Both the position numbers and the translations under genes were made by a program. A DNA stretch of 64,000 nt. It comes from an uncultured Candidatus Saccharibacteria bacterium. GTDB taxonomy: Bacteria > Patescibacteriota > Minisyncoccia > Phycocordibacterales > UBA918. The DNA lies in NCBI GenBank assembly GCA_964399295.1, contig CAYNQD010000001.1, positions 86,454 through 150,453 of the forward strand, written 5' to 3'. The stretch's first letter is position 1; each line of letters starts with the position of its first letter. The notes beneath the pieces were generated by a model that had not been told where the DNA came from, searched no databases, and worked only from the letters and a program-made list of their open reading frames with translations. Below are positions 36,860 through 62,870 of this stretch, in pieces.

Positions 36860-36908
36860 ATCTGTTAGAAGAATTATAAATTATTGTAAAGTATTGTAAA
36901 CTATAGTA

Positions 36909-39451: not shown

Positions 39452-39493
39452 TTACTAGGGATGTAAAGAATAGTAAAGTATAATAAAACACAT

Positions 39494-39670: not shown

Positions 39671-39673
39671 TAT

Positions 39674-40666: not shown

Positions 40667-40679
40667 TAATTAATGAATT

Positions 40680-41723: not shown

Positions 41724-41731
41724 GTTAAGTT

Positions 41732-43306: not shown

Positions 43307-43317
43307 GCTACTGCGGA
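43243..43317 (-). tRNA. tRNA-Asn (anticodon GUU) with encoded CCA
   Basis: Minus-strand UCCGCAGUAGCUCAGCGGUAGAGCAAUCGGCUGUUAACCGAUUGGUCGUAGGUUCGAAUCCUACCUGCGGAGCCA. The 7-bp acceptor, D arm GCUC/GAGC, anticodon stem AUCGG/CCGAU with loop CUGUUAA, and T-arm GUAGG-UUCGAAU-CCUAC all form. Confidence 0.85.
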
Positions 43318-43478
43318 ATGTTTCTCTATTTCGTTTGTTTTGTTCTTGAACTTGAAGCTGATTAATTTGCTGATTCCTAATCAATCTAACCAATTCAGTC
43401 CAAGTGCTTGTATTGTACAGAAAAAAAATGATTATTCAACCTTTTCTGGTGGCTGTTTTGAAGGTTTGGTGTTGGTGG

Positions 43479-45991: not shown

Positions 45992-47887
45992 CTAAACAAT
46001 ACGGCTAGGATCAATTTCCACTCTGACATAAGGCGGAAGATTCCTGATGATATCTATCAGTGCCTTATATTCCTTGCTGCCGACAGGCAGTCTAAACAAA
46101 GAATGCCGCAGTAATTTCCCTTGTCCAAAAGTGGGATTGCTATAAAAAAGACCATTGTAAGGCTTGGTTAAAGCTTTTATTGTTTCCTCTGTGGATAGGA
46201 TAAATTCTTTGGTGCCTGTCCAGCTCAGTAGTACAAAAGTTGAAAAAGGTGGGTAATTCAAACTTTCTCTCAGGGCTAATTCATCACTGTAGAAGTTTTC
46301 CAAACTGCCGGTTTTGACGTAATTGATCAATTCATCAGGCGGGGTACGGGTTTGAACCAGCACTTCCTTGTGGGAAATTTCTCGTAGTTGCAGCAGGAGT
46401 CTGAAAGTGTCTTCGTCGGCTCTCCAGGTGGGATTGGAACGAGTGGCATCCAGAGAAATGATGGCGCTTAAATCCACTCCGCGTAGCGTCAGGTAGGGTA
46501 AGGTCATGGTCGTGCCAATCAAAATCACGCCGCGTTTGGAATAAAATTCATCAATAATTTTTTCCGCTCGTTTTTTGGTAGCGGCAGTGGTGTTGTCAAA
46601 AAGTAAAACGGTTTGGTTGGGGAAATTGGCGACGGCCTCATCAAAGACATGTTGAATACCGATGCCGCGTTGTTTTAGCCTCCAAGAGCCGCAGTCGGTA
46701 CAAGTATCGGCCGCTCGCACTCTTCGTCCAGAAGTGCTGGAAACAAACCACCTTTCTTCTTCACCGTCTTTTTTATATGTCCGCAGTAGTGAATAGGGGG
46801 TGTTGGAATCGGGGCAACGAAAAATAAAACCACAATCAATACAGGCTACAACTGGAGAAATTCCCCGTCTAGCTCCATACAAAAAGACTCGTCCACGGCT
46901 TTCTAAAGTACTGTTAATTCTTTTTTTTAGCTCTGTGGAGAATAGCAAAAAAGGCAAGTGCGGCGAGGGCTTGTCTTTTTGTTCGATGATGGTGAATGGA
47001 GTGGAGAAGGCGATGCGTTTTGTTTCTTCGTTGTGGGTGAGGTATTTTTCGGTTCTTCGATAATGTTCATCTTCGGCGCGCGGCAAAATGTCCCCCAGCA
47101 AAATACTACGACCGGTAACTTTGGCTTGAGTGATTAGGGCGGTGCGATGGTCGAGGTAGGGGCGGGTTCGGTCTTTGTATAAGTTATTGGCGCTTCTTTC
47201 GATTATTATTGAGAGCAGATCAACACGGTCCAGGTAGGCGTGAGAAGGGGTGGTCAAAATTACTTTGGCGATACTGGTATCTTCAAAAGCAGCATAAGCC
47301 TTTTTGCGTTCGGTTTTTGATTGCTGGGGAGAAAATTTAACAATTCTATCTTCAATCCCGTGAGAAAGATGAGAGTGAGCATATTCCAAATCAACGGAAT
47401 TGGGAATCACAAACATAACAGAACCTCTCCTAGCCAAAGTGCTTCTGATATGGCTGCGGTAGGTGACGTATCTTTCTGGGATAATGGCGGTCAAAATCTG
47501 TGGCGCGGTATCTTCGTGGTGGGTGAGTGAGGATACTGTCGGGTATTGATACTGGCCATTACGGAGATCGGGTGATAGGAGTTGGTACAAGATTGCTCCC
47601 AGTGAACTGGGGTAAATTTCGGTTAATTTTTCTGCGGTTTGTCGTAAACATAGAGGAATTATGGCTGGGTTGGTTTGTTCGGGGAGTTTGCGCAGGGCAA
47701 AGGAGGCGTTTCTGAGTGAGGTTTTGTGGTCGGTAGCTGGTTTGCTGCTGGTTATGATGGCGCGGTGGTTTTTATTCCTAATTGGCACGGTCACAAAAGT
47801 ACCGACTTCATAGTTTACGCTACTAAAATAAGTCAGAGTGTTTATTTTGGTGGCTTTAATAAGGGGAATGACCTGGATGACAAACAT
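45992..47887 (-). CDS. priA: Primosomal protein N' (PriA) with degenerate helicase Walker A/B motifs
   Basis: N-terminal 3'-DNA-binding-type start. CIDCGFIFRCP...CTDCGSW zinc-binding region. Aligns with the E. coli PriA helicase core, but GVTGSGKT becomes AIIPERYV and VIDEEHDSSYKQ becomes IIIERSANNLYKD. Confidence 0.7.
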   Translation of the reverse strand: MFVIQVIPLIKATKINTLTYFSSVNYEVGTFVTVPIRNKNHRAIITSSKPATDHKTSLRNASFALRKLPEQTNPAIIPLCLRQTAEKLTEIYPSSLGAILYQLLSPDLRNGQYQYPTVSSLTHHEDTAPQILTAIIPERYVTYRSHIRSTLARRGSVMFVIPNSVDLEYAHSHLSHGIEDRIVKFSPQQSKTERKKAYAAFEDTSIAKVILTTPSHAYLDRVDLLSIIIERSANNLYKDRTRPYLDHRTALITQAKVTGRSILLGDILPRAEDEHYRRTEKYLTHNEETKRIAFSTPFTIIEQKDKPSPHLPFLLFSTELKKRINSTLESRGRVFLYGARRGISPVVACIDCGFIFRCPDSNTPYSLLRTYKKDGEEERWFVSSTSGRRVRAADTCTDCGSWRLKQRGIGIQHVFDEAVANFPNQTVLLFDNTTAATKKRAEKIIDEFYSKRGVILIGTTMTLPYLTLRGVDLSAIISLDATRSNPTWRADEDTFRLLLQLREISHKEVLVQTRTPPDELINYVKTGSLENFYSDELALRESLNYPPFSTFVLLSWTGTKEFILSTEETIKALTKPYNGLFYSNPTFGQGKLLRHSLFRLPVGSKEYKALIDIIRNLPPYVRVEIDPSRIV

Positions 47888-47963: not shown

Positions 47964-49463
47964 CTAAAACTCATCTAAATATTCAATTTTGGCACCAAGT
48001 GAAGACAGTCTTTCTACTAATTTTTCATAACCGCGGTTGATGCTGTAGATGTTGCGTAAGACGCTGTGTCCGTTGGCCCCCAGCATGGCAATCAAGAGTA
48101 TGGTGGCGGGACGAAGGGCGGGCGGGCAGATGAGTTCAGTTGGTTTGAGTTCGGTGGGGCCGGTGATGTAGATGCGGTGCGGATCAGCCAAAACCGTGTC
48201 CGCTCCCAGCTTTTCCAGTTCGGTAAAATAAATGGCTCGCTTCTCATAAACCCAGTCGTGGATTAGGGTTTGGCCTTCCGCTTGAGTAGCGATAACGGCA
48301 AAAAAGGGAAGGTTGTCTATATTGAGTCCGGGATAAACAGAGGGGTGGATTTTTTCGTGCAAGGCGATTAGTTTTGATGGTTTGGTGGTGATATTGACTA
48401 ATTTTGTAAAATTATTATCAGATAAATAAACTTTAGATTTGGTGTACTTAAAACCCATTTTCTCCAGCTTTAAAAGCTCAAGTTCCAGAAATTCAATGGG
48501 GCAACGAGTGATGGTTATAGCTGAATTGGTGACAATAGCTGTCGCTAAAAAAAACATACTGTCGGTTGGGTCTTCCGACAAGGTGTAGGTAATGTTTTTA
48601 TTTATATCCGCCACTCCCGTGACTTTCAGTGTGGTGGTGCCGATACCTTCAATCTTAACTCCTAATAATTGGAGAAAAATACAAATTTCCTGCACCATGT
48701 AATTGGCGGAAGCGTACTTTATAACGGTGGTGGACGGAGTTCTGGCTGCCGCAAAAAGAGCATTTTCCGTAACGGTGTCGCCGGATTCATAAAGAATGAC
48801 TTCCTCCGGACTTTTATTAGTATGAATTATTTCATAACTATCATCAGTGGTTTTGATATCAACGCCAAAATGTTCCAGGGCGTAGAAATGCGGTCTGACA
48901 GTCCGGCTTCCGAGCTTGCAGCCGCCTGATTGCGGGAGATTAAATTTTGGTAAAAAATGAATCAGCGGCCCGATAAACATCACGATGCTGCGAGTACGCT
49001 TGGCGGCTTCAGTATCGATCTTTCTTAATTGGTACTGCTTGGGCGGGGTAATAACGACCGTGCTGTCTTTCCAGTCTACCTTGGCGCCGATACTCTCTAG
49101 GACTTCAATAATACGGTGCACTTCCTCAATTCGAGGCATGCGGTGCAGGGTGGTTGTGCCGCGATTGAGGATACTGGCGCAGAGCAAGCCCACAGCGCCA
49201 TTTTTGGAGGTGTTTGTCTCGATGGTGCCGCTCAGCTTTTTTTTGCCTTCAATCTCGACATTGACCGTCCCCAGGGAAAGGGTAATCAGGTTTTTGCCGA
49301 GGGCCTTGCTGATTTTTTTCAACATATCAGCGCTGATGTTTTGTCGGCCTGATTCCATGCGAGCAACGGCACTTTGAGTAGTGTTGATTTTTTTTGCCAA
49401 TTCAGCTTGCGTCAAGCCTTTGGTTTCGCGCATATCGGCGATGCGATGTCCAATATTTAACAT
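47964..49463 (-). CDS. murA: XRE-family HTH fused to UDP-N-acetylglucosamine 1-carboxyvinyltransferase (MurA)
   Basis: N-terminal about 65 aa LTQAELAKKINTTQSAVARMESGRQNIS (HTH_XRE). Remainder is EPSP-synthase fold with GGCKLGSRTVRPHFYALEHFG matching MurA GGCAIGARPVDLHI (catalytic Cys). Confidence 0.75.
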   Translation of the reverse strand: MLNIGHRIADMRETKGLTQAELAKKINTTQSAVARMESGRQNISADMLKKISKALGKNLITLSLGTVNVEIEGKKKLSGTIETNTSKNGAVGLLCASILNRGTTTLHRMPRIEEVHRIIEVLESIGAKVDWKDSTVVITPPKQYQLRKIDTEAAKRTRSIVMFIGPLIHFLPKFNLPQSGGCKLGSRTVRPHFYALEHFGVDIKTTDDSYEIIHTNKSPEEVILYESGDTVTENALFAAARTPSTTVIKYASANYMVQEICIFLQLLGVKIEGIGTTTLKVTGVADINKNITYTLSEDPTDSMFFLATAIVTNSAITITRCPIEFLELELLKLEKMGFKYTKSKVYLSDNNFTKLVNITTKPSKLIALHEKIHPSVYPGLNIDNLPFFAVIATQAEGQTLIHDWVYEKRAIYFTELEKLGADTVLADPHRIYITGPTELKPTELICPPALRPATILLIAMLGANGHSVLRNIYSINRGYEKLVERLSSLGAKIEYLDEF

Positions 49464-49544: not shown

Positions 49545-50561
49545 ATGTCTTGGAATAATCTAACTCCCAAAATAGGAATTGATCTTGGTACGACTAGTAT
49601 TTTGGTTTTTGTACCTGGACACGGCATTGTTCTCAATGAACCGTCAGTGGTTGCCATATCGGACGACAATCGAGTGGTGGCTGTCGGCGCTGAGGCCAAA
49701 CAAATGATTGGTAGAACTCCCGACACCATCAGAGCCTATCGTCCGATGAAAGATGGCGTGATTGCTGATTATCGCGTGACGGAAGCCATGCTTCGTTATT
49801 TTCTTCGTAAAGCTCTGGGGAAATATAATATTTTTAAACCGGATGTCATGGTGTCGGTGCCGGCGGGCGTAACCTCGACCGAGAGACGAGCAGTGGTGGA
49901 AGCCACTCTCAAGGCAGGAGCCAAAAATGCCTACGTGGTGAAAGAGCCAATTTTGGCAGCTATCGGAGCGGGTGTACCAATCTACGAAGCACAAGGGCAT
50001 ATGATTATTGATATTGGCGGTGGGACTATCGACGTGGCTGTTATTTCACTCGGCGGTATTGTAGCTTCAAATTCAGTCAAATGTGCCGGCAACCGCATCG
50101 ACACCGCCATCATAGATTATGTTAAGAAATCCAGAAATTTATCTATCGGTGAAAAAACCGCTGAGGAAATTAAGATTACCATTGGTTCCGCTTTGCCGTT
50201 GGAGGAAGAGTTGGTAATGGATATAAATGGAAGAGATGTCTTGTCGGGTTTGCCGCGGACGACTGAAATTCGTACCAATGAAGTCGTCAAGGCTATTGGC
50301 AAGGAGTTGAGAGAAATGATAAAAGCCATAAAGGATGTCTTCCAAGAGACTCCGCCAGAATTAGCTTCAGACATTATTGACGGTGGTATCATCATGACAG
50401 GAGGAACTTCTCAATTGCGAAATTTTCCGGAACTGGTGAAAAGACGCACTGGAGTCAAAGCCCAGCTGGCTGATCGAGCTCTATTTTGCGTGGTCACCGG
50501 CACCGGTATCGCGCTTGAGCACCTTGATACCTACAAACGCACAGTTTTGGCAAAACGTTAA
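49545..50561 (+). CDS. MreB-like actin homolog (paralog, outside mreBCD operon)
   Basis: IGIDLGTTSILVFV phosphate-1, DIGGGTIDVAVIS phosphate-2, GGIIMTGGTSQL adenosine motif. 338 aa. Confidence 0.8.
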   Translation: MSWNNLTPKIGIDLGTTSILVFVPGHGIVLNEPSVVAISDDNRVVAVGAEAKQMIGRTPDTIRAYRPMKDGVIADYRVTEAMLRYFLRKALGKYNIFKPDVMVSVPAGVTSTERRAVVEATLKAGAKNAYVVKEPILAAIGAGVPIYEAQGHMIIDIGGGTIDVAVISLGGIVASNSVKCAGNRIDTAIIDYVKKSRNLSIGEKTAEEIKITIGSALPLEEELVMDINGRDVLSGLPRTTEIRTNEVVKAIGKELREMIKAIKDVFQETPPELASDIIDGGIIMTGGTSQLRNFPELVKRRTGVKAQLADRALFCVVTGTGIALEHLDTYKRTVLAKR

Positions 50562-50613
50562 TTTAGGGGATAGTTGCCATCGTCTTCTGTATTTTTGAGT
50601 TACAATAGCAAAT

Positions 50614-53355
50614 ATGTCAGAGGAAATACCAAAGAGATTTTCCTCACCGGAGGAAGAGATATCTTATTTACGGGAACAAATCGCCGCTCGTGAGCGGGAG
50701 CTATTGTCTCGCTCTATTGAGTTAGACAAAACAGACATAGAAACTATCGGCAAGGAAGAAATTAGAGAATACGCGTCTTTTACACCCAGGATTATTCTGG
50801 ATCCAAGTCATAAATTAGACGATGCCAGCGTGGCTATTTCCGTTGAGCAGATTAAAGAGACATCCAATCCGGTGGAAGAAATAATTGCCTTGGCTTTGGA
50901 GAAGGGTATTCGTAATGCTTTGTCTGTTTTAGAAAAAATAGACAATGCTTACATAGTAGATGAAGTGCATAAGCGGCTGGTCGAACAGATTCGTTCGGGC
51001 GTGAATTTGCAGGATATAAAAGAGGGTGTGAAGGAATGGCATCTTCTGCACATGACGCTTTATGAATTGACTCTACCGGAGACAAAAGCCGCCAACGGCC
51101 GAGAGTACCAATTGGCGGAATTGGTGGGGATGATGGAGCAGTTATTCGCGGGTCTCCGAACTATAGGCTCAGTATATTCGTATAATCACTTCGCTATTGA
51201 AATTGCCGTGGCTGATTTTAGCGACGATATTATTTTCTACGTGGCGGTTCCAAATAAATTCGTTAATCTGTTTGAAAAACAAACTCTGTCTTTGTTTCCG
51301 CAAGCCCAACTAACAATCCAATCTCACGACTATAATATTTTTGTTAATGAGGGCACGACTCTCATTTCAGAAATGTCCTTAAAGAAACATCCGATCTATC
51401 CGATTCGCACTCACGACGGCTTTACTTCCGATCCTCTGTCTGTCATCTTGAACGCTTTTTCCAAAATCGACCGCGAAGGTGGCGGAGCAGCAGTACAGTT
51501 TTTGATGCGTTTTCCTCAGAAAAAGTATCGAAAAAGTTACGAAGAAATCATAAAAAGCATGCAAAAAGGCATGAAGGCCGGGGAGGCTATTTCTCGCAGC
51601 ACGGTCGGGGGAGAGATTATGGGTTCGTTGTCGGATTTTTTCTTCGCCAAGAAAAAGGGGGATGAGAGCGCGTCGTCTGAAATTGATAACGAAAAAATTG
51701 AACTTTTCTCACGGAAATTAAAATCTGAAATATTTGAAACCAATATTCGAATCGCGGTGTCAGCCAAGGAAAAAAGTCTGGCCGAACAAAGTCTAACCGA
51801 AATCGAATCCACTTTTAATCAATTTGATTTGGTTGAGAGCAATACTTTCGTGTCCAAGAGAGCCAAGGGTAATATAAAAAATTTACAAAAAGCCTTTGCG
51901 TTTCGCGAATTTTCTTCAAGTTCTGTCATTCCTTTCAATTTGACTGAATTATCTACTTTGATTCACTTTCCGGGCAATGGCATCGCTTCTTCTCCGCAAT
52001 TTAAACAATCTCATTCCGCGACAGCCGCTGCTCCGACAGATATGCCGACCGAAGGCACTATTATTGGCATCAATCGCCACCGCAATTCCGAACAAACCAT
52101 CTACATGAGCGAACTCGACCGTATGCGGCATTTGTACGTTATCGGGCAAACCGGTACCGGTAAATCAAAGTTTCTTACCAATCTAATCATTCAAGATATT
52201 CAGCAAGGAAACGGCGTGTGTATGATTGACCCGCATGGGACTGATATTGAAGAAGTATTGGGAGCGATTCCGCCGGAGCGAGAGCAAGATATCATATATT
52301 TTGATCCTTCCAGGATGGATCGGGTGGTTGGTCTTAATATGCTCGAATATGATATAAACAAACCCGAGCAAAAAACTTTCGTGGTCAATGAGTTGTTTTC
52401 TATTTTCCAAAAATTATACGGCGGCAATCCGGAATCAATGGGGCCGATGTTTGAACAATACTTTCGTAACGCCACGCTTTTGGTGATGGAAGACCCAGAC
52501 AGCGGCAATACTTTGATGGACATTTCCCGAGTGATGGCCGACGCAAAGTATCGTCGCATGAAGCTGGAAAAAGCCAAAAATCCGGTGGTGGTGCAATTTT
52601 GGCGAGAGATTGCCGGCAAGGCGGGAGGAGAAGCTTCGCTCGAAAATATTGTGCCGTACATTGTGTCAAAATTTGACGTTTTTACCGCCAACGATTACAT
52701 GCGGCCGATTATTGGCCAGCAAAAGTCAGCCTTTAATTTTCGGAAGGTGATGGACGAACGAAAGATTTTACTGGTAAATTTGTCAAAGGGGCGATTGGGA
52801 GAAATAAACGCCAATCTTATCGGCATGATATTTGTCGGCAAAATCCTGATGGCGGCTTTGTCGCGAGTCGACGATTCTTCCAAGTCCTTCGCTCCTTTTT
52901 ATCTGCATATAGATGAGTTTCAAAATGTCTCTACTCCGGCCATTGCTTCTATCTTGTCCGAAGCGCGAAAATACAAACTCAGCCTTACCATGGCGCACCA
53001 ATTTATCGCTCAGCTTGACTCCAGCATCAAAGACGCGGTGTTTGGCAACGTGGGTTCTCTGGTATCGTTCCGGGTCGGATCAGAGGATTCTCATTTCCTA
53101 GAGCAGCAATTCACGCCGGACTTTGAAGCCAAAGACCTGATGAATATACCAAATTACAATGCCATAGTCAGAATCCTCGCCAATGGCAAACCTACCAAAC
53201 CATTTAGTATGGCTACTTTGGCACCTATTACTTCGGATCAGACCCAAGTCAAACGATTGATTGAGCAGAGTGCCACTCGCTATGGCCGTTTGCGCGGGGA
53301 GGTGGAAGCGGAGATATCCGCAAGATACTCCAAGCCGGAGATTTTACCATTATAA
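50614..53355 (+). CDS. Large P-loop ATPase with TraG/VirD4/TrwB-like (T4SS coupling-protein-type) C-terminal domain and unknown N-terminal half
   Basis: Walker A YVIGQTGTGKSKF followed by MIDPHGTD (resembles coupling-protein IDPKGD). Walker B YLHIDEFQN. LSLTMAHQFIAQLD resembles the VirD4 QSxxQL region. No N-terminal TM helices. Confidence 0.45.
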   Translation: MSEEIPKRFSSPEEEISYLREQIAARERELLSRSIELDKTDIETIGKEEIREYASFTPRIILDPSHKLDDASVAISVEQIKETSNPVEEIIALALEKGIRNALSVLEKIDNAYIVDEVHKRLVEQIRSGVNLQDIKEGVKEWHLLHMTLYELTLPETKAANGREYQLAELVGMMEQLFAGLRTIGSVYSYNHFAIEIAVADFSDDIIFYVAVPNKFVNLFEKQTLSLFPQAQLTIQSHDYNIFVNEGTTLISEMSLKKHPIYPIRTHDGFTSDPLSVILNAFSKIDREGGGAAVQFLMRFPQKKYRKSYEEIIKSMQKGMKAGEAISRSTVGGEIMGSLSDFFFAKKKGDESASSEIDNEKIELFSRKLKSEIFETNIRIAVSAKEKSLAEQSLTEIESTFNQFDLVESNTFVSKRAKGNIKNLQKAFAFREFSSSSVIPFNLTELSTLIHFPGNGIASSPQFKQSHSATAAAPTDMPTEGTIIGINRHRNSEQTIYMSELDRMRHLYVIGQTGTGKSKFLTNLIIQDIQQGNGVCMIDPHGTDIEEVLGAIPPEREQDIIYFDPSRMDRVVGLNMLEYDINKPEQKTFVVNELFSIFQKLYGGNPESMGPMFEQYFRNATLLVMEDPDSGNTLMDISRVMADAKYRRMKLEKAKNPVVVQFWREIAGKAGGEASLENIVPYIVSKFDVFTANDYMRPIIGQQKSAFNFRKVMDERKILLVNLSKGRLGEINANLIGMIFVGKILMAALSRVDDSSKSFAPFYLHIDEFQNVSTPAIASILSEARKYKLSLTMAHQFIAQLDSSIKDAVFGNVGSLVSFRVGSEDSHFLEQQFTPDFEAKDLMNIPNYNAIVRILANGKPTKPFSMATLAPITSDQTQVKRLIEQSATRYGRLRGEVEAEISARYSKPEILPL

Positions 53356-53380
53356 ATATGTGCTATCATAATCCTAAGTT

Positions 53381-56242
53381 ATGAGTGAGAAACTATCCAC
53401 ATCTGAAAGCGAACTTTCTTCAAGGTTAGAAAACGGGAATATTTCCGATGCTGTAGTTTTGGAAGATATAAAGAGAGAGGATGTAAGTTCAGAAAATACG
53501 GAGCAAGCTGAGTCTGATTCCAATAATCAAGAAACAAACGAATCCAGTCCGAAAGCCAAGCATGAATCTGATTTGAATAGTCAGGAAAAAATGGAGCTAG
53601 AGTTAAATCTCTTGGATAGAGAATTGAAAGACGCTATAGGTAACTTCAATCACATGATCGAAGTTAATGGTGTTCCTGATGGTTATACATATAAGGATTA
53701 TGTACAAAATATAATAAATAAAGTCGAGCAGTATGTTCACGATGATATTAAAACTGAGATTTTAGAAAAAGAAAATTATTTAAGAACAATAATAAAATAT
53801 ACAGAGATAATTGAAAAAGGTCATCATCCGGAGAGAGGGGGGGTCGACTCTGAAAACGCTAAAGAAGTTGAAGAAGAATCAATAGAGAAAAAAGAAGAAG
53901 ATTTAGCTGATGTAAACACAAAAGAAGAACCGGTAGAAGAAGTTGCAGAAGAAAAAAGTCAGGAACAAGAATTTTATGAAATAGCCAGAGAAGATTTATT
54001 TAAGTCTAAGGAAGGCTATAGAAATAAAAAAGCCGCCTATGAGGAAGCTCTGGAGAAATATCAAGAAGAACAAGCTGCAGTCGGTTTTTTTGGAAAGACA
54101 ACCACAAAAATCAAAAGTATTTTTGGTATAAAGCCGGAAATTCCTGAAGCTATAAAGAAATTAGAGACTAAGTACAAAGAAGCTCGAAAAGAATATTCTG
54201 AGAACTTGAGGCATTCTTTGATTAAAAGAGGTGAGGTAAGCGGCAATAAAGAATTTCAAGAAAGAGAGAGTGTGAGTCCCGCTGCCGTAGAAAAGTCTAA
54301 ATTCAGTAAAGCAGAAGCTTACGATTCCAATTCATTTGCTTTTAAAAATGCCTTCGCTCATAAATTTATTATTAAGCCCCATCAGAAGGCTATAGAAAAA
54401 CAACAGGAGATATTACTGAGCGAAGCCGAGAAGTCAAGATTAAGAAAAATAATGCTAACCCTGTCCAAAAATAAGTGGCATATTCGTACCGGTTTGGTGG
54501 TGGGGGCTGGAGTTTTGGGAGCGGTGACAGGAGGGGCAGCAGCGGCAGCTTTGGCCGGAGCCGGTATGCAAGCCGGGCGAATAGCGTTTGGGTCTATTGC
54601 TGGTATGGCGGGTGGTATGGCGGGGCATGCGATTTTCTCAGGACATGTTGAAAAATCAAATGAAGCTCTGGCTAAACAAGAGGCATTTACCAGAAAAAAT
54701 TATATATCTAGTAATTTAGATTATTTGGAAGAGCAATTGCTTAAGGCTCAAAAAACCAAAGATACGGCGGAAAAAAATCAGAGACGAGCCTCGGTGGCGG
54801 GGGCGGTGCTGGGAGGTGGACTTACGGCTTATAGTATGCCTGATATGGAAGCGGCAGAGTTGGTAAATAATATTTCCCAAAAGTCCGGTGAAGTGATGGA
54901 CACTTCACAAGAAGCTCTTGGAAAGGCTTTAGACCAGATGAATGAGGAGGCAAAAGATGCTCTCAAGGCTCTTGATAAAGTTATTGAAGAGAGTAAAGCT
55001 ACTGCCGCTAACGTCTCTGAGAAGGTCTCCGGCTCAGTTCCTGATGTTGTTAAAGATACTTATTCAGAATTAACTGAAGAAGCTAAAGAACAACTTTCAA
55101 ATCTTGCCCGACAAATGGGTGTAGGAGAAACAGATTCTACACCTACGTCGAAAATTGATGACTTAGCGTATGGAGTGCAAACGCCTGAGACAGTGTCTTC
55201 TATAGAATCTGGTGAAGTTGTATCGCATATGTACGAGGTGGTTAAAGGGGATACTTTGTGGCACATAATGAAAAGAGAGTACGCGGAGGTTTTAGATCAA
55301 CTTCCAGAAAATGAGCACAATAAAATCCTGGATAAGTTTTTTGATAAAGTCAGAGATGATGCTACTTTGATAAATTCACTGGGTCTAAAAAGTGTTGATG
55401 ATATTGATTTAATTTATCCTAAGGAAAATATTGATATCGGTCTGATTGGTGAGGAGTTAACAAAAATGGTTAATGGGGAAGTTGGAGATGAGGGTATCGC
55501 GATTCATGAGAAGAGCGCTACTTTGGAGGTCAAGGTTGAAGGCTCTGAAGAAACCAGTATCCCCATTAAAATAAACAACGATCCTTTTGCGTATGGTGCG
55601 GATTCGTTTGCCGGCGACGGAGTATATACGCCTGAGGCAGATATTTCGTCCAATACTCCTCATACCAGCGTACCTTTTCACACCGAACCAATCGTCGATG
55701 CTAGCAAATTAAACTTCGCTGAGACACCTATTCCCACAGAATCTACAGAAACGAACCTTCCTGTTCCTGTAGAACCTATAAAAACAACCGTCCCCCCAGA
55801 GAAAAATTATTTTGACAACATAAAGCCCGAGGTTCTTCCTCAAGAAATGATAGCTAAAGCGATTGATCGTTATGTCGAGGGAATAGAGTCAGGTACCTAC
55901 GATTTTATGGACAGGTTTGCCAATCACACCAGTCCCTTTCTATTTTTTAAAGAGATGGACTTGCGTGATTTTGATGAGTTTGGACAATCTGATGTTCGTG
56001 GTCAGTTTGCGGATCTGGCGAGAAGTGGTGGCGCGAATATAAAATATGAGACATACTTGGCTTTGAATGATCTTGTGGATATGATGAGAAAGGAGGTTGA
56101 TGCACCTTCAGACATATCTTTAAATGAATACTTTTCAAGATACTTAAAGGAACATCCACAGATAGTTGAGGCGCTTAATTCTAAAAATTTTGCTACAGTG
56201 CAAAATAAGCTTGCTCATGATTTATACTACTTAAGATCATAA
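53381..56242 (+). CDS. Giant acidic coiled-coil protein with Gly/Ala-rich membrane-like segment and LysM-like motif
   Basis: 953 aa. E/K-rich N-terminus. GLVVGAGVLGAVTGGAAAAALAGAG...GMAGGMAGHAIFSG hydrophobic glycine-zipper region. YEVVKGDTLWHIMKREY LysM-like. Confidence 0.4.
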   Translation: MSEKLSTSESELSSRLENGNISDAVVLEDIKREDVSSENTEQAESDSNNQETNESSPKAKHESDLNSQEKMELELNLLDRELKDAIGNFNHMIEVNGVPDGYTYKDYVQNIINKVEQYVHDDIKTEILEKENYLRTIIKYTEIIEKGHHPERGGVDSENAKEVEEESIEKKEEDLADVNTKEEPVEEVAEEKSQEQEFYEIAREDLFKSKEGYRNKKAAYEEALEKYQEEQAAVGFFGKTTTKIKSIFGIKPEIPEAIKKLETKYKEARKEYSENLRHSLIKRGEVSGNKEFQERESVSPAAVEKSKFSKAEAYDSNSFAFKNAFAHKFIIKPHQKAIEKQQEILLSEAEKSRLRKIMLTLSKNKWHIRTGLVVGAGVLGAVTGGAAAAALAGAGMQAGRIAFGSIAGMAGGMAGHAIFSGHVEKSNEALAKQEAFTRKNYISSNLDYLEEQLLKAQKTKDTAEKNQRRASVAGAVLGGGLTAYSMPDMEAAELVNNISQKSGEVMDTSQEALGKALDQMNEEAKDALKALDKVIEESKATAANVSEKVSGSVPDVVKDTYSELTEEAKEQLSNLARQMGVGETDSTPTSKIDDLAYGVQTPETVSSIESGEVVSHMYEVVKGDTLWHIMKREYAEVLDQLPENEHNKILDKFFDKVRDDATLINSLGLKSVDDIDLIYPKENIDIGLIGEELTKMVNGEVGDEGIAIHEKSATLEVKVEGSEETSIPIKINNDPFAYGADSFAGDGVYTPEADISSNTPHTSVPFHTEPIVDASKLNFAETPIPTESTETNLPVPVEPIKTTVPPEKNYFDNIKPEVLPQEMIAKAIDRYVEGIESGTYDFMDRFANHTSPFLFFKEMDLRDFDEFGQSDVRGQFADLARSGGANIKYETYLALNDLVDMMRKEVDAPSDISLNEYFSRYLKEHPQIVEALNSKNFATVQNKLAHDLYYLRS

Positions 56243-56246
56243 TTCT

Positions 56247-56543
56247 ATGCAAAATAATAATCAAAACAACAACGCACCCATAGCTTTAGATTTAGACCAT
56301 CTTGAAGACGAACAGCAGCAACTCTTTTTAGAGGAAGTTGGAACTGTCGTTTTTCAAAGTGCTTTGATGAAGTATTTGGCCGTTGAAACGGAAGAAGTGG
56401 CTAGCGAGTTTGAAACTTTTATCAATTTACAAGTCGGTTCACCTGATTTCATTGAAAGCTTGTGTTTGAAGTACCCGAGTTTTGGTGAAGCTTTAAATGA
56501 AGAAATAACCGCTTTCACCGCGGAAATAAATTCTCTGGCGTAG
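56247..56543 (+). CDS. Small acidic protein
   Basis: 98-aa ORF, Gln/Asn-rich start then acidic. 5 nt after the upstream stop. Confidence 0.3.
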   Translation: MQNNNQNNNAPIALDLDHLEDEQQQLFLEEVGTVVFQSALMKYLAVETEEVASEFETFINLQVGSPDFIESLCLKYPSFGEALNEEITAFTAEINSLA

Positions 56544-56611
56544 ACTTAATTCACACTTATAATTTAAAATTCGCTGTGTTTTATTTTACATAATGTTATT
56601 ATGTGTAGGTT

Positions 56612-58165
56612 ATGGATCAAAACAGTTCTTTAGTTACTTCGTACGATTTTAATTCTCAAGCTGGAATAACTTCAGTCTTAGCTGCTGTTAGGCAAAGCGG
56701 TTTAAATTCCGCCGACAAAAATGAATTAAGGGATTTAGTTTTTTTATACAAAAGTGGAGGTGGCGATGAGTCGGTAAGAATTTCTTTAGAGCAAAAATTA
56801 AAAGCTCATAAAATTGAGGTTATGTTGCCAAAGTCGGTAGTGACCAGCTCTGCGCCAGCTCCTAGTTTACCTTTTGGTAGCTACAGGCCGGCTCCGGTTT
56901 TTAAATCCCCTAAAGTTGAGTTTTCGCCAGTAGCTTCAAAACCAGTAGCCACGCCTCAGATGGCGACTGAGGTAGCTACACCCAATGTCGCGGCTGAGGA
57001 GGTCGTTGTTGCCGAGGCGGCGGCACCAGTCGAAGCACCGATTGCTGTCTCCAAGCCAATGCCGGCTTTTGTACCCAAACCAGAGCCAACTCCCGTATTT
57101 ACTCCTCCGGTATCTATACCACCAGTTGAGCCAGTACTACCAGCTGAGGTTGTAAAAAGTGATGATATGGACACTCCCGCTGTTGCTCCACCATCAGTTT
57201 CAAACAACACTAATTATTTAGACCGAATCAGAGAAATAAAGTCCGTGGTCAACAACAAAGTTGGTAATCCGGTTAATTTGGTTGATATCAATAATGAAGT
57301 CGGAAGGGAATACATGAATGCTCTCCTCGACTCGATGAAAAAATTAAACGGCGGTCTGGCCGGAGATTTGGATAAAGCCATGCAAAGGCTAGAGATAGCT
57401 TTTTTAGCAGTTGAAAAAGCAATCATCGAACACGCCAAAACCACCCAAAATGCAGACTCGGCTAGTCGACAAATAAATTCAAATCTATCACCAAGCTCAG
57501 TCATCAAAAAAGAGGCTGCTTCCAATAATGTAGAAATCAAGTCCGGTTTTGATGATGTAAAAACAGACGATGTGCGGACGGGTTTTGAAGTCAATGGTGT
57601 GTCTGGTGCAGTAAACGCCAATGCGGTTTCTGAGACTAAGGTAGACTCAGCGGTCTATGTACCTGTAACTCAGTCGGAAAATTCGCCAACTTTTTCTGTT
57701 CCCCCTACACCTACACCCGCTCCAGCTGCGGTGCCCAGCCCTTCCCCCAGAAAGATAGTTTCCTTGGCGGAAGAAAAGAAAATACTAACCCCAGCCGACT
57801 TGCCAGAATACTCCGTCACCGCCGAAGATCTAGCCAATCCACTTTTTACTGGTGAGGTTGATAGGGGTTTGGATCAGTTGTTGTCTGATTGGCCGCTATT
57901 CAAAAAGAGCGGTTTGTTTGGAACTGGTCCAAAAGGTAGAGAGCATCCTCTCTACAAAAAAATATCCGGACTGCAAATACCGCTTTTGTTGGCAGGGCGT
58001 TTTGAGGGAGCTAGTCAAGAAATCAAGCAAAGCATAACCGACTACATGAATGGGTGGCGGTATGAACAGGGTATTATTTATGAGCAAGGTGAAACTTTTG
58101 ATACTTACTTAAGGCGTGTTATAAAGCATATTATTGATTTACAAAAAAGACGAAATCCAGCATAA
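56612..58165 (+). CDS. Pro/Ala/Val-rich linker protein with conserved N- and C-terminal domains
   Basis: 517 aa. Central about 130 aa PAP/PVP-rich low-complexity region (PAFVPKPEPTPVFTPPVSIPPVEPVLPAEV). Confidence 0.3.
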   Translation: MDQNSSLVTSYDFNSQAGITSVLAAVRQSGLNSADKNELRDLVFLYKSGGGDESVRISLEQKLKAHKIEVMLPKSVVTSSAPAPSLPFGSYRPAPVFKSPKVEFSPVASKPVATPQMATEVATPNVAAEEVVVAEAAAPVEAPIAVSKPMPAFVPKPEPTPVFTPPVSIPPVEPVLPAEVVKSDDMDTPAVAPPSVSNNTNYLDRIREIKSVVNNKVGNPVNLVDINNEVGREYMNALLDSMKKLNGGLAGDLDKAMQRLEIAFLAVEKAIIEHAKTTQNADSASRQINSNLSPSSVIKKEAASNNVEIKSGFDDVKTDDVRTGFEVNGVSGAVNANAVSETKVDSAVYVPVTQSENSPTFSVPPTPTPAPAAVPSPSPRKIVSLAEEKKILTPADLPEYSVTAEDLANPLFTGEVDRGLDQLLSDWPLFKKSGLFGTGPKGREHPLYKKISGLQIPLLLAGRFEGASQEIKQSITDYMNGWRYEQGIIYEQGETFDTYLRRVIKHIIDLQKRRNPA

Positions 58166-58811
58166 TAGAGCCATGGTATTCGGTCATCATGCGTACTTAG
58201 CAAGGGAGGATTTGCATGAAGTTGATAAGTGCGAGAGGATAGTTACCAGCCTTGGTTTTGATGAGGTAAATTACGTGATGGATGAAACTTTTGGCATAGA
58301 TGAAGCGAGAAAGTTGATAAAAACCGCTTACATCAAGCCAAATGTTTCCGAGAAAAAATTGATTGTCGTAAAAGTAAAAACCTTAACCTTGGAAGCCCAG
58401 CAGTCTTTATTGAAAATTTTGGAGGAACCGCCGGCTACCACCGTTTTTCTTTTTCTGGTAGACAAAGGGATAAAAATTTTACCCACTCTACAGTCACGTT
58501 TTCAAGAATATAGACTGGACGAAAAAAAAGAAAAACCAAAAGAGAATGTAACTTTTGTTGATTTTTGTAAATTATCTTACGCCGATCGTTTGGCTACCAT
58601 CTCTAAAAAATTGGAGAAACCGGATTCGGTTTGGTTGAATGAAATCAGTGATGGCTTGGCTTTGGAATCACTAGACAATATTCAAAAAATGAAACCAAAA
58701 GTTTTGACCACCTTAAATATGATAATTATGAATCTAAACACCAGAGGAGCTTCCAATAAAATGTTGTTGGAAGAAATGGCCTTAACCATTCCTTTGCAGG
58801 CGAGTAAATAA
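58134..58811 (+). CDS. holB: DNA polymerase III delta'-like clamp-loader subunit (short)
   Basis: LTLEAQQSLLKILEEPPATTVFLFL (sensor-1/box VII region) and TLQSRFQ (SRC-like motif) without a P-loop. True start probably an internal Met. Confidence 0.5.
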   Translation: MIYKKDEIQHNRAMVFGHHAYLAREDLHEVDKCERIVTSLGFDEVNYVMDETFGIDEARKLIKTAYIKPNVSEKKLIVVKVKTLTLEAQQSLLKILEEPPATTVFLFLVDKGIKILPTLQSRFQEYRLDEKKEKPKENVTFVDFCKLSYADRLATISKKLEKPDSVWLNEISDGLALESLDNIQKMKPKVLTTLNMIIMNLNTRGASNKMLLEEMALTIPLQASK

Positions 58812-61796: not shown

Positions 61797-62870
61797 ATGA
61801 GTTTTTTAACCCAAAATCTAAATAAGTTTTTGTCGGTAATTTCCACCGATATGGCTATTGACCTTGGTACGGCCAATACTTTAGTTTACGTAAAAGGCAA
61901 AGGAATTGTTTTGAATGAACCAACAATCGTTGCCATAAACAAAAAAACCGGACAATTAGTAGCTGTTGGCCAGGAGGCAAAAGCGATGCAGGGGCGGACC
62001 CCGCAGCACGTTGAAGTGATTCGTCCTTTGGTCGACGGCGTTATTTCAGATTTTGAAATGACAGAGGAAATGTTGAGTTACTTAATCAACAAAACACAAA
62101 ATGACAATCGTGCTTTCATTTCGCCAAAAATCCTAATTGGAGTGCCGTCGGGCATAACCAACGTAGAAATGAGAGCCGCCCGCGACGCCGCCAAAAATGC
62201 CGGCGCCCGTGACGTTTTTTTGATTGAAGAACCAATGGCGGCCGCTATTGGCGCCAAATTACCAATTGGTAAAGCGGCTGGAAATATGATTATTGATATC
62301 GGCGGCGGTACTACGGATATTGCGGTCATTTCGCTCAATGGTATCGTGGTGGCAAAAAATTTACGGGTGGCGGGCGACCATTTAAATTCAGCCATTTCTT
62401 CTTATGTTAGAGATCAGTTTAAAATCTATGTTGGTGAGAAGACGGCTGAGGATGCAAAAATCGCCCTGGCTTCTGTCAAACGAGATGGCAGTGGTAGTGA
62501 GATGGTGATTCGCGGTAGAGATGTGATGACGGGCTTGCCCAGAGAAGTAATTATCACCGCTGGCGACGTAAAAGACGCCGTCATCAACCAAATCGACAGC
62601 ATCGTGGAGTCCACCAAAACTGTGCTTGAAAAAACACCGCCGGAAGTATTGGCTGATATAATGCAAAGAGGAATACATATCTGCGGCGGCGGGGCTTTGA
62701 TTCCAGGGCTGGCGGCTTTGTTGGAAGAAAGTTTGCAAGTGCCGGTGATTGTGGTGCCGGATCCATTGCGGTCAGTGGTACGAGGAGCCGGTATTGTTAT
62801 TGAAAATTTTGATCAATATGAAGAAATACTCATCGACAACGAAGGTGAATTATCACCATACCTTGCGTAA
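61797..62870 (+). CDS. mreB: Rod shape-determining protein MreB
   Basis: MAIDLGTANTLVYV, DIGGGTTDIAVIS and HICGGGALIPGL motifs. Followed by mreC/mreD. Confidence 0.85.
   Translation: MSFLTQNLNKFLSVISTDMAIDLGTANTLVYVKGKGIVLNEPTIVAINKKTGQLVAVGQEAKAMQGRTPQHVEVIRPLVDGVISDFEMTEEMLSYLINKTQNDNRAFISPKILIGVPSGITNVEMRAARDAAKNAGARDVFLIEEPMAAAIGAKLPIGKAAGNMIIDIGGGTTDIAVISLNGIVVAKNLRVAGDHLNSAISSYVRDQFKIYVGEKTAEDAKIALASVKRDGSGSEMVIRGRDVMTGLPREVIITAGDVKDAVINQIDSIVESTKTVLEKTPPEVLADIMQRGIHICGGGALIPGLAALLEESLQVPVIVVPDPLRSVVRGAGIVIENFDQYEEILIDNEGELSPYLA

What the first reader, a model, noticed from the sequence alone, without database searches (positions are those of the whole stretch)
49545..58165. MreB paralog, TraG/VirD4-like ATPase, giant LysM protein, acidic and Pro-rich proteins
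A second MreB sits apart from the canonical mreBCD operon at 61.8 kb. It heads a co-directional run comprising a 913-aa ATPase, a 953-aa protein, a 98-aa acidic protein and a 517-aa protein. The ATPase has a coupling-protein-like core (Walker A followed by DPHG, HIDEF Walker B, AHQ motif) but no TM anchor and a 480-aa unknown N-terminal domain. The 953-aa protein is acidic and coiled-coil, with a glycine-zipper membrane segment and a LysM-like peptidoglycan-binding motif. The 517-aa protein has a Pro-rich linker. Together these look like an envelope-spanning translocation or attachment apparatus built around an actin-like filament, possibly DNA-uptake or surface-appendage related. It is not a described system as far as I can tell.
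Basis: partly seen in the sequence, partly recalled or inferred. Interest (0 to 1): 0.6.

Follow-up and report, generated by a model that had tools for sequence, protein, structure and literature searches.

The report
Conjugation-derived ATPase module beside second MreB
A tiny-genome Patescibacteria (CPR) chromosome carries a strongly conserved, uncharacterised motor protein descended from conjugation machinery together with dedicated partner proteins, next to a second MreB gene. The motor module is real and widespread, but its cargo and its link to MreB are unproven.

Summary
All five ORFs exist as described, in a Paceibacteria (Nomurabacteria/Kaiserbacteria-like) chromosome.

The 913-aa ATPase is not a plain VirD4.
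- Its C-terminal motor is coupling-protein-like by sequence (TrwB, DotL).
- It has no membrane anchor.

The family is near-universal in Patescibacteria, in housekeeping contexts away from virB4. Relatives occur in Bacillus phages and in plasmids of monoderm bacteria and archaea.

Two neighbours recur with the ATPase across distant lineages and in different gene orders, so these three form a genuine module:
- the giant acidic protein;
- the 98-aa acidic protein, which belongs to the DUF5663 family.

The 517-aa Pro-rich protein is a lineage-specific addition. It is always present and tightly packed with the ATPase and holB.

The MreB paralog is linked in 57 of 61 related loci. However, the gap to the ATPase is loose, insertions occur, and the block has moved without it. 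Distant lineages show no linkage, and the protein looks like a canonical cell-wall MreB beside murA.

The LysM call is sub-threshold and the membrane segment is not conserved. An envelope-spanning, actin-built apparatus is therefore not shown. The best reading is an exapted type IV secretion system (T4SS)-type recruitment/translocation ATPase module.

The parts
49545..50561 (+). MreB paralog (MreB2), 338 aa. Canonical-looking MreB. Membership in the module is unproven.
   Evidence: PF06723 E=7e-128. 41% identical to the mreB at 61797. 356 bits to Geobacillus MreB 7zpt. Found upstream of the ATPase in 57 of 61 group-I loci, but the gap is 3-2048 nt. Median 84% identity across 23 loci.
50614..50988 (+). 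ATPase residues 1-125: N-terminal helical module, encoded as a separate small gene in other Patescibacteria.
   Evidence: An HMM of the roughly 137-aa proteins upstream of group-III ATPases hits residues 10-125, E=6.7e-10. Helical in the AF2 model.
51031..51978 (+). ATPase residues about 140-455: DUF8128, a VirB4-type N-terminal domain.
52051..53328 (+). ATPase residues about 480-905: P-loop motor domain of the coupling-protein (VirD4/TrwB/TraD) type.
   Evidence: Pfam T4SS-DNA_transf 23.4 bits (cutoff 20.1) and TraG-D_C 24 bits (cutoff 22). NCBIfam TraD/CD1115 hits. Profile against the PDB: TrwB 5e-7, DotL 2e-5. Walker A/B motifs are invariant.
53381..56242 (+). Giant acidic variable protein (VAR), 953 aa. 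Recurrent partner of the ATPase.
   Evidence: No Pfam hit. 52 of 60 position-equivalent proteins form one family. Pieces also hit the large neighbours of group-II/III ATPases. Starts 25 nt after the ATPase.
54488..54841 (+). VAR residues 370-487: Gly/Ala-rich hydrophobic (glycine-zipper-like) segments. Probable membrane hairpin or anchor in this genome.
   Evidence: Uncharged stretches at 370-399, 401-423 and 470-487. The HMM is found in only 12 of 60 orthologs, plus L032 and L044. 29 of 49 orthologs have no such segment.
55136..55510 (+). VAR residues 586-710: LysM-like 'MID' region (sub-threshold).
   Evidence: Pfam LysM matches only profile positions 1-15, at 14-17.5 bits against a threshold of 20.9. 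The MID HMM is found in 22 of 60 orthologs and in L050 and L079.
55799..56161 (+). VAR residues 807-927: conserved C-terminal domain, the most conserved part of the family.
   Evidence: The CT HMM is found in 44 of 60 orthologs, including short soluble ones.
56247..56543 (+). 98-aa acidic protein, DUF5663 family. Recurrent partner of the ATPase.
   Evidence: pI 4.05. The family HMM hits roughly 100-aa ORFs next to group-II and group-III ATPases. 13 of 31 family members match PF18908, best E=1.5e-6.
56612..58165 (+). 517-aa protein: three conserved helical modules (residues 16-65, 199-285, 404-514) joined by disordered Pro-rich linkers. Specific to the group-I lineage.
   Evidence: 805 homologs, none with a Pfam domain. 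Alignments A1 and A4. AF2 model. No significant fold match. Present downstream in 64 loci and never missing. No hits near group-II/III ATPases.
58134..58811 (+). holB (short DNA polymerase III delta'), immediately downstream. Probably the same transcription unit; a neighbour, not shown to be part of the module.
   Evidence: PF13177 E=2.6e-17. The gap from the 517-aa protein to holB has a median of 18.5 nt and is <=150 nt in 52 of 52 loci.
47964..49463 (-). HTH_3-MurA fusion, divergently transcribed from MreB2 (context).
   Evidence: PF01381 plus PF00275. NF006873 murA 303 bits. Conserved upstream in group-I loci.

Best explanation
The core of the finding is a chromosomally fixed, exapted T4SS-type ATPase module, not an actin-based machine.

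What is shown:
- The 913-aa protein combines a VirB4-type N-terminal docking domain with a VirD4/TrwB-type P-loop motor.
- It has no membrane anchor.
- It co-occurs, in different gene orders across Patescibacteria, with a small acidic DUF5663 protein and a giant, fast-evolving acidic protein whose most conserved part is a roughly 100-aa C-terminal domain.

What is inferred about how it works:
- The ATPase assembles as a hexamer, like its relatives.
- It uses the DUF5663 protein as an adaptor or chaperone.
- It engages the conserved C-terminal domain of the giant protein. That protein is then either a cargo handed to a translocation channel (the Patescibacterial T4SS encoded elsewhere) or the ATPase's dock at the membrane. 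In this genome the giant protein has Gly-zipper hydrophobic segments.
- In this Paceibacteria sublineage the module gained the 517-aa three-module, Pro-linked scaffold protein. It is expressed in one tight unit with holB.

MreB2, just upstream and divergent from murA, is most simply a second cell-wall MreB co-inherited in a syntenic housekeeping block. A positioning role for it is possible but not shown.
For: ATPase domains:
- C-terminal domain: Pfam T4SS-DNA_transf and TraG-D_C pass their thresholds. Profile hits to TrwB and DotL.
- No transmembrane segment.

Conservation and spread:
- 64% median identity, like frr and proS.
- 5,329 cluster representatives at E<=1e-30.
- Literature: 5,713 VirD4-type homologues in 2,918 of 3,035 Patescibacteria genomes, with only 148 near virB4 (PMC12102498).

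Partners:
- The DUF5663 HMM hits roughly 100-aa ORFs within 3 kb of group-II/III ATPases in 11 loci. Each lies beside a 440-1050-aa protein, and they sit both upstream and downstream of the ATPase.
- VAR's TM and MID HMMs hit those large proteins.
- The VAR C-terminal domain is the most conserved part (44 of 60), including in soluble orthologs.

Packing:
- ATPase to next gene: median 12 nt, and <=150 nt in 80 of 82 loci.
- 517-aa protein to holB: median 18.5 nt, and <=150 nt in 52 of 52 loci.
- MreB2 to ATPase: 3-2048 nt.

Other points:
- The block has relocated without MreB2 in L008 and L102-L104.
- Plasmid and phage relatives sit in conjugation or 'DNA translocation' operons (PMC3357382).
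Against: - No interaction, hexamer or translocation has been shown. The cargo-versus-dock role of the giant protein is pure inference.
- No T4SS channel genes (VirB4, VirB6, VirB3) are visible in the 64-kb window (one search covers only the ten largest other ORFs). The rest of the genome could not be read.
- Only 11 of roughly 78 group-II/III loci show the DUF5663 plus large-protein partners next to the ATPase. In most of those lineages the partners, if present, are elsewhere.
- Four group-I loci lack the giant protein between the ATPase and the 517-aa protein.
- The t4cp homologue of Southlakia was reported as not essential for epibiotic growth, while T4SS genes were (PMC12102498). This argues against an obligatory role with the T4SS.
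- MreB2 linkage in 57 of 61 loci, and its 84% conservation, are compatible with a functional tie that I may be underrating.
Confidence: 0.45

Rival explanations
1. A DNA pump tied to replication or segregation. The ATPase is a soluble FtsK/T4CP-like double-stranded or single-stranded DNA translocase that has become a housekeeping factor in Patescibacteria, for chromosome segregation, DNA import or DNA hand-over. The acidic partners act as regulators or DNA mimics.
For: - The motor is of the DNA-transfer coupling-protein type.
- The family's relatives sit next to relaxase-like genes in phage SPO1 (Replic_Relax), in the phage 0305phi8-36 'DNA translocation operon' (PMC3357382), and in a phage replication module (BCE1).
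- Relatives also sit in plasmid conjugation operons (TcpC/D/E).
- Chromosomal neighbours are repeatedly replication or recombination genes. In group I these are priA upstream and holB immediately downstream. In groups II/III they are dnaX within 1-4 genes in about 14 loci and rmuC in 8.
Against: - There is no relaxase, DNA-binding domain or KOPS-type gamma domain in the module.
- Hits to FtsK, Ced and HerA models are confined to the P-loop.
- Many neighbours are unrelated housekeeping genes: map, ndk, frr, FKBP, TGT. Guilt by association is therefore weak.
- This does not explain the giant variable partner with a conserved C-terminal domain.
Confidence: 0.25
2. An envelope-spanning apparatus organised by an MreB2 filament: MreB2 positions the ATPase through the 517-aa scaffold, and the giant protein spans the membrane and binds peptidoglycan through LysM.
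For: - MreB2 lies upstream in 57 of 61 group-I loci and is more conserved than MreB1 (84% against 75%).
- An independent actin-like plus homologous-ATPase linkage exists in Bacillus phages: SPO1 gp27.9 ALP_N with gp27.4, and 0305phi8-36 orf207 with orf201 (PMC3357382).
- The giant protein here has hydrophobic Gly-zipper segments and a LysM-like motif.
Against: - The whole 20-kb region is syntenic housekeeping DNA, so linkage alone is uninformative.
- The MreB2-ATPase gap is loose, with insertions of up to 2 kb. The block has relocated without MreB2 in four loci.
- No MreB lies adjacent to group-II or group-III ATPases (a canonical mreB lies 6-9 kb away in three loci).
- MreB2 is a canonical MreB divergent from murA.
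- LysM is below threshold, and the region occurs in orthologs with no transmembrane segment or signal peptide. The C-terminal domain must be cytoplasmic in the soluble orthologs.
Confidence: 0.2
3. No module at all. These are unrelated housekeeping genes that happen to be syntenic in one order of Paceibacteria.
For: The flanking genes (fmt, def, priA, murA ... holB, frr, rseP, proS, mreBC) are equally syntenic. Group-II ATPases sit alone after secY-adk-map.
Against: - The ATPase, the DUF5663 protein and the large acidic protein recur together in distant lineages in rearranged order: downstream in groups I and II, upstream in group III.
- Intergenic gaps of about 12 nt.
- The 517-aa protein is never missing.
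Confidence: 0.07
4. A remnant of an integrated conjugative element, or an anti-phage defence system built on a HerA/mad8-like ATPase.
For: Relatives occur on plasmids and phages. There is a weak PADLOC mad8 hit (E=1e-14) and HerA P-loop hits.
Against: - It occupies the same core-genome position in about 80 loci, with housekeeping-level conservation.
- GC content is not deviant.
- There is no integrase, relaxase or other mad/defence component in the block.
- The window's two serine recombinases lie 6-16 kb away in a separate low-GC stretch.
Confidence: 0.03

Closest known systems
Type IV coupling proteins (VirD4 / TrwB / TraD / DotL)
   Same: Homologous P-loop motor. Pfam T4SS-DNA_transf and TraG-D_C pass their thresholds, and profile hits to TrwB and DotL are the best in the PDB.
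   Different: There is no N-terminal transmembrane anchor; instead there is a roughly 450-aa soluble N-region. No relaxase or mating-pair genes lie nearby. The position is in the core chromosome, and the gene is far from virB4 in nearly all Patescibacteria (PMC12102498).
VirB4 (TrwK of R388)
   Different: There is no sequence-level match to VirB4 profiles. The C-terminal domain scores as T4CP, not VirB4. The canonical Patescibacterial VirB4 is a different gene near oriC (PMC12102498). It has an extra roughly 125-aa N-terminal helical module.
Bacillus phage 'DNA translocation operon' (0305phi8-36 orf200-207; SPO1 gp27.3-27.9)
   Same: It contains a homolog of this ATPase that includes the DUF8128 region: phrog_5156 E=3e-86, and SPO1 gp27.4 at 22% identity over residues 202-901. 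An actin-like gene sits in the same operon (PMC3357382).
   Different: The phage operons carry a relaxase-type nickase and an Alp/ParM-type actin rather than MreB. No DUF5663, VAR or 517-aa-protein homologs were detected there. The phage operon is dispensable in the laboratory and its function is also unknown.
TM-less DUF87/T4CP-like ATPase of pLS20-like Bacillus plasmids, and related ATPases of Streptomyces, haloarchaeal and Sulfolobus plasmids
   Same: Same two-part architecture and length (913 aa, no transmembrane segment). It aligns to residues 205-884 of the window protein.
   Different: It sits at the head of a TcpC/TcpD/TcpE conjugation operon on a plasmid. Identity is about 22%.
MreB paralogs of Firmicutes (Mbl, MreBH)
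   Same: MreB2 is a full-length canonical MreB with intact nucleotide-binding motifs. It is separate from the mreBCD operon.
   Different: No data exist on its function. Here it is divergent from an HTH-MurA fusion and upstream of the ATPase block.

Membership tests
Type IV coupling protein (VirD4/TrwB/TraG) | P-loop nucleotide-binding domain homologous to TrwB, with Walker A and B motifs | tested here: met
   PF02534 23.4 bits (cutoff 20.1) over residues 495-803. PF12696 24 bits (cutoff 22). Profile against the PDB: TrwB 5e-7, DotL 2e-5. Motifs are invariant.
Type IV coupling protein (VirD4/TrwB/TraG) | N-terminal transmembrane anchor | tested here: not met
   No hydrophobic stretch anywhere in residues 1-480. 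The N-region is a soluble alpha/beta domain.
Type IV coupling protein (VirD4/TrwB/TraG) | All-alpha domain inserted in the nucleotide-binding domain | tested here: inconclusive
   The 250-aa spacing between Walker A and Walker B is compatible. PF10412 TrwB_AAD_bind scores only 18.4 bits, below its 20.5 cutoff, and only on the P-loop. The C-terminal domain was not modelled.
Type IV coupling protein (VirD4/TrwB/TraG) | Genetic association with a relaxase and/or mating-pair-formation genes | tested here: not met
   None in the block or among the large ORFs of the window. None in about 165 related loci. Literature: 148 of 5,713 lie near virB4.
VirB4 | VirB4-type N-terminal domain fold | tested here: met
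VirB4 | Sequence match to VirB4/CagE/TrbE family profiles | tested here: not met
   No PF03135 or VirB4 NCBIfam hit at E<=0.01. No VirB4 chain appears in the PDB profile search.
VirB4 | Neighbouring VirB3/VirB6/VirB8-type membrane partners | tested here: inconclusive
   The only membrane-capable neighbour is the giant protein, which has no Pfam match. No profile comparison with VirB3/6/8 was possible.
FtsK/SpoIIIE | FtsK_SpoIIIE motor domain above threshold, N-terminal transmembrane segments and a gamma domain | tested here: not met
   PF01580 scores 19.5 bits, below its 24 cutoff, over 36 residues of P-loop only. There are no transmembrane segments. The gamma domain was not seen.
HerA | HAS-barrel N-domain plus HerA ATPase | tested here: not met
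MreB | Full-length MreB_Mbl domain with intact phosphate and adenosine motifs | tested here: met
   PF06723 residues 9-331 of 338, E=7e-128. DLGTT, DIGGGT and TGGTS are read in the sequence. 356 bits to 7zpt.
MreB | Operon with mreC/mreD/PBP2 (canonical rod complex context) | tested here: not met
   That context belongs to the other copy at 61797-62870, which is followed by mreC. MreB2 lies beside murA.
LysM | Match to PF01476 above the gathering score, covering the beta-alpha-alpha-beta unit | tested here: not met
   14.2-17.5 bits against a 20.9 cutoff, covering profile positions 1-15 only, in three orthologs.
LysM | Extracytoplasmic location | tested here: inconclusive
   The region follows hydrophobic segments in this protein. 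It also occurs in orthologs with no transmembrane segment or signal peptide (L111, L108, L110, L118).
DUF5663 (PF18908) | Match to the Pfam profile | tested here: met
   13 of 31 members of the family seeded on the window protein match, best E=1.5e-6. The window member alone does not reach E<=0.1.
Phage 'DNA translocation operon' (Pathria et al. 2012) | Relaxase, coupling ATPase, actin-like protein and VirB6-like membrane protein together | tested here: not met
   An ATPase homolog and an actin-family neighbour are present. There is no relaxase. VirB6 likeness of the giant protein was not testable.
Known anti-phage defence systems (PADLOC) | A complete set of system components | tested here: not met
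   Only a partial mad8 hit and HerA P-loop hits on the ATPase. Nothing was found for the other four proteins apart from one marginal hit on MreB2 (PDC-M61B, E 8.8e-4).

The most novel reading that the evidence does not exclude
A T4SS-independent, cytoskeleton-positioned translocation machine that is part of the core cell biology of a large CPR lineage. In this reading, MreB2 filaments and the three-module Pro-linked 517-aa scaffold place a VirB4/VirD4-hybrid hexamer at defined membrane sites. There, with DUF5663 and the giant acidic Gly-zipper protein, it moves DNA (chromosome hand-over or import) or a surface protein across the envelope. It would be the cellular counterpart of the actin-plus-translocase operons of Bacillus jumbo phages.
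Probability: 0.12. Interest if true: 0.85.

Novelty: new variant of a known kind. Interest (0 to 1): 0.6.

Why it matters
Patescibacteria make up a large fraction of bacterial diversity, and almost none of their lineage-specific core genes have a function.

A 2025 survey counted about two VirD4-type genes per genome in 96% of these genomes. Almost all lie away from the T4SS, and the authors could only say that exaptation 'cannot be ruled out'.

This analysis gives that orphan family an anatomy:
- a VirB4-type N-domain joined to a coupling-protein motor;
- a detachable N-terminal module;
- no membrane anchor.

It also gives the family a partner list: DUF5663, a giant acidic protein with a conserved C-terminal domain, and in one lineage a Pro-linked scaffold. 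Together these turn an annotation puzzle into testable binding and localisation experiments.

The analysis also links the family to the unexplained actin-plus-translocase operons of Bacillus phages and to anchor-less coupling proteins of monoderm plasmids. This bears on how conjugation ATPases diversified.

Tried and rejected
- Conventional FtsK, SpoIIIE or HerA: only P-loop-level hits below threshold, and the N-domain is VirB4-like. Rejected.
- Defence system: PADLOC gave only partial mad8 and HerA P-loop hits. Rejected.
- Mobile element: the locus has a core-genome position and housekeeping-level conservation. Rejected.
- True LysM: below threshold.
- Are group-I and group-II ATPases paralogs in the same genome? 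I compared the contig lengths of 120 group-II hits with those of group-I hits and found no shared contig. This is inconclusive. The literature average of about two copies per genome is the only support.
- 517-aa protein: a profile search against PDB sequences and Foldseek on its model gave nothing significant. HMMs of its modules found nothing near group-II/III ATPases.
- Is the 403-aa protein upstream of the plasmid homolog actin-like (Alp7A)? No Pfam support.
- Promoter and terminator scan of 47.5-64 kb: no informative intergenic signals.
- DUF5663, VAR and 517-aa-protein HMMs found nothing in the two phage loci that were held.
- Paper searches for DUF8128, and for Patescibacteria + VirD4 + MreB, returned nothing. 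No paper on a CPR MreB paralog tied to this ATPase was found.


Full report
**Origin and observation**

The window is a Patescibacteria (class Paceibacteria, Nomurabacteria/Kaiserbacteria-like) chromosome segment of about 42% GC.

- ORF 49545-50561 is a full-length MreB (PF06723 E=7e-128). It is 41% identical to the mreB at 61797-62870, which precedes mreC.
They are invariant across a 23-sequence alignment of relatives down to 29% identity. The protein has no hydrophobic segment in its first 480 residues.
- The 953-aa protein is acidic (pI 4.8), with Gly/Ala-rich uncharged stretches at residues 370-423 and 470-487.
- The 98-aa protein has pI 4.05.
- The 517-aa protein has Pro-rich linkers.
- The one part of the observation that weakens is 'LysM'. 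Only the first 12-15 positions of PF01476 are matched, at 14-17.5 bits against a threshold of 20.9.

**What the ATPase is**

By sequence, the C-terminal half (about residues 480-905) is a coupling-protein-type motor.
- Pfam T4SS-DNA_transf, TraG-D_C and DUF87 just pass their thresholds.
- NCBIfam's best hits are TraD and CD1115 models.
- A family profile finds TrwB (5e-7) and DotL (2e-5) as the best solved relatives. It finds no VirB4, FtsK or classical HerA.

The N-terminal half is Pfam DUF8128 in precomputed annotations. No paper mentions this family. I modelled residues 1-478 with a 21-sequence alignment. Mean pLDDT was 77.9, with the core at residues 147-450 mostly at 80-95.
- Foldseek independently returns nine TrwK chains as its only significant hits.

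So the protein joins a VirB4-type N-terminal domain to a VirD4-type motor, without the membrane anchor that defines coupling proteins.

Residues 10-125 form a further helical module. In another large branch of the family this module is a separate small gene immediately upstream of an 800-aa ATPase (HMM E=6.7e-10 to the window protein).

**Distribution**

An exhaustive search finds 5,329 cluster representatives at E<=1e-30. Loci from one-genome-per-species and metagenome collections fall into three contexts according to my ORF maps.
- Group I: 58-81% identical to the window protein, with the arrangement seen here.
- Group II: about 45-50% identical, full length, typically placed after L15-secY-adk-map and before ndk.
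- Group III: about 40% identical, with the N-module split off, often followed within a few genes by dnaX.

This matches a 2025 survey. It found 5,713 VirD4-type homologues in 2,918 of 3,035 Patescibacteria genomes, only 148 near virB4. The authors suggested possible exaptation (PMC12102498).

Outside Patescibacteria, relatives that include the DUF8128 region occur in two settings.
- Bacillus phages: phrog_5156 E=3e-86, SPO1 gp27.4 and phage G gp156.
- Plasmids of Bacillus, Streptomyces, haloarchaea and Sulfolobus. One example is a 913-aa anchor-less protein at the head of a TcpC/D/E conjugation operon.

**Which neighbours belong**

Across 85 group-I loci the order is fmt-def-priA(-) murA(-) | mreB2 ATPase VAR [98-aa] 517-aa holB frr rseP proS mreB mreC (priA and murA). 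Because the whole region is syntenic, conservation alone proves little. I therefore looked for linkage that survives rearrangement.

1. The 98-aa protein's family HMM finds roughly 100-aa ORFs within 3 kb of group-II and group-III ATPases in 11 loci.
   - Each lies beside a 440-1050-aa protein.
   - They are downstream of the ATPase in group II and upstream in group III.
   - 13 of 31 members match Pfam DUF5663.
2. The giant proteins downstream of group-I ATPases are one family despite lengths of 296-1633 aa (52 of 60 connected).
   - HMMs of their hydrophobic region and LysM-like region hit the large neighbours in groups II and III.
   - The ATPase, DUF5663 protein and giant acidic protein are therefore a real module.
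3. The 517-aa protein is present in all 64 loci with enough downstream sequence, but it has no detectable relative near group-II/III ATPases.
   - It has three very conserved helical modules separated by disordered Pro-rich linkers.
   - It has no significant fold match.
4. Spacing.
   - ATPase to next gene: median 12 nt, and <=150 nt in 80 of 82 loci.
   - 517-aa protein to holB: median 18.5 nt, and <=150 nt in 52 of 52 loci.
   - MreB2 to ATPase: 3 to 2048 nt, with inserted genes in many loci (for example an HD-domain protein plus an inositol monophosphatase in L002).
5. In four loci (L008, L102-L104) the ATPase-to-holB block sits behind unrelated genes, with no MreB2.
6. No MreB lies adjacent to group-II/III ATPases; in three of those loci (L064, L067, L077) a canonical-type mreB lies 6-9 kb away.

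**MreB2 itself**

MreB2 is a textbook MreB.
- It scores 356 bits against Geobacillus MreB, more than MreB1 does (337 bits).
- Its nucleotide-binding motifs are intact.
- It is more conserved across 23 loci than MreB1 (84% against 75% median identity).
- It is transcribed divergently from an HTH-MurA fusion.

The simplest reading is a second cell-wall MreB, as in Firmicutes.

The counter-argument is an independent linkage. In Bacillus phages, a homolog of this ATPase shares an operon with an actin-like protein and a relaxase-type nickase. The SPO1 proteins are gp27.9 (ALP_N, E=2e-27), gp27.4 and gp27.3 (Replic_Relax). This arrangement was described as a dispensable 'DNA translocation operon' in phage 0305phi8-36 (PMC3357382). 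I rate a functional MreB2 tie at roughly one in three.

**The giant protein**

Only 20 of 49 distinct orthologs have any uncharged hydrophobic stretch. The short orthologs (296-635 aa) are soluble, yet they keep the C-terminal domain, which is the most conserved part of the family (44 of 60).

That domain must therefore be cytoplasmic, at least before any export. LysM-like regions also occur in orthologs with no membrane segment or signal peptide. An obligatory envelope-spanning, peptidoglycan-binding role is therefore not supported.

Several features together resemble coupling-protein recruitment of substrates by C-terminal signals and small acidic chaperones or adaptors. This comparison rests on established knowledge of T4SS biology and is an inference here.
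- a hypervariable body;
- a conserved roughly 100-aa C-terminal domain;
- an adjacent small acidic protein;
- a coupling-type ATPase.

Equally, the giant protein could be the ATPase's membrane or scaffold dock.

**Mechanism and verdict**

Shown:
- the domain architecture;
- the absence of a membrane anchor;
- the partner set;
- the tight operon-like packing;
- the lineage-specific gain of the 517-aa protein;
- housekeeping-level conservation.

Inferred:
- hexameric motor action;
- recognition of the giant protein's C-terminal domain with DUF5663 as adaptor;
- translocation or docking at the membrane.

A DNA-handling role remains a serious rival. The supporting neighbours are priA, holB, dnaX and rmuC, and the relatives include relaxase-linked phage and plasmid genes. 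Mobile-element, defence-system, FtsK and HerA readings are rejected.

The system is not a member of any described family in the strict sense. It fails the transmembrane-anchor and relaxase/T4SS-linkage criteria for coupling proteins, and it fails the sequence criteria for VirB4. I classify it as a new variant of a known kind (a T4SS-derived ATPase module).

**Limits**
- Gene calls in related loci come from my own simple ORF caller.
- The structure evidence rests on a predicted model.
- The rest of this genome could not be read, so the presence of a T4SS channel or of a second family member is unknown.
- Organism labels on third-party MAGs are unreliable.

Noticed in passing
window 47964-49463 (- strand): MurA carries an N-terminal Cro/C1-type HTH_3 domain (residues 4-59), fused to a full UDP-GlcNAc 1-carboxyvinyltransferase. 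The 499-aa fusion is conserved in nearly all group-I loci. A DNA-binding domain on a peptidoglycan-precursor enzyme is unusual.
   Followed up: partly
window 45992-47887 (- strand): The 631-aa basic protein has no Pfam hit but is a very divergent PriA replication-restart helicase. NCBIfam E=1e-49, far below the curated cut-offs. It sits in the classical priA-def-fmt arrangement.
   Followed up: partly
window 11256-19581: A V/A-type ATP synthase operon: subunit I at 11256-13244, A at 15754-17553, B at 17555-18934. It stands in place of, or in addition to, an F-type enzyme in this Paceibacteria genome.
   Followed up: no
window about 28900-43320: A possible integrated element or elements. It contains an Eco57I/TaqI_C-type N6 DNA methylase (28896-30917) and two large serine recombinases (32995-34707 and 41732-43306). 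The second recombinase overlaps tRNA-Asn (43243-43317, - strand). GC drops to 36-39%.
   Followed up: no
L045-L086 (group-III loci), e.g. L064 9481-9894: In a large branch of the family, the first roughly 125 residues of the ATPase are encoded as a separate 125-150-aa gene directly upstream. This is a split or fusion event. A second, unrelated-looking small protein family (about 164 aa, for example L063 9114-9608) occupies the same position in other loci.
   Followed up: partly
L006 (phage SPO1) 3782-9292: The operon comprises gp27.9 (Alp-type actin, annotated 'partition protein'), four small ORFs, gp27.4 (a DUF8128-type ATPase) and gp27.3 (a Replic_Relax nickase). This is an actin plus translocase plus relaxase cassette of unknown role in a lytic phage.
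   Followed up: partly
window 58134-58811: holB (delta') is very short (about 200-225 aa) and poorly conserved: 34% median identity, when neighbouring genes are at 60-84%. Its listed TTG start overlaps the end of the 517-aa gene by 32 nt.
   Followed up: no
L102-L104 and L008, directly upstream of the relocated ATPase block: A 372-aa protein with a repetitive 'GDV...G' beta-type N-terminal half and a multi-pass membrane C-terminal half replaces MreB2 as the upstream neighbour. It was not identified.
   Followed up: no
window 50614-53355: PADLOC mad8 (a MADS defence component) aligns to the motor domain at residues 483-852, E=1e-14. This suggests mad8 belongs to the same coupling-protein-like ATPase branch.
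   Followed up: no
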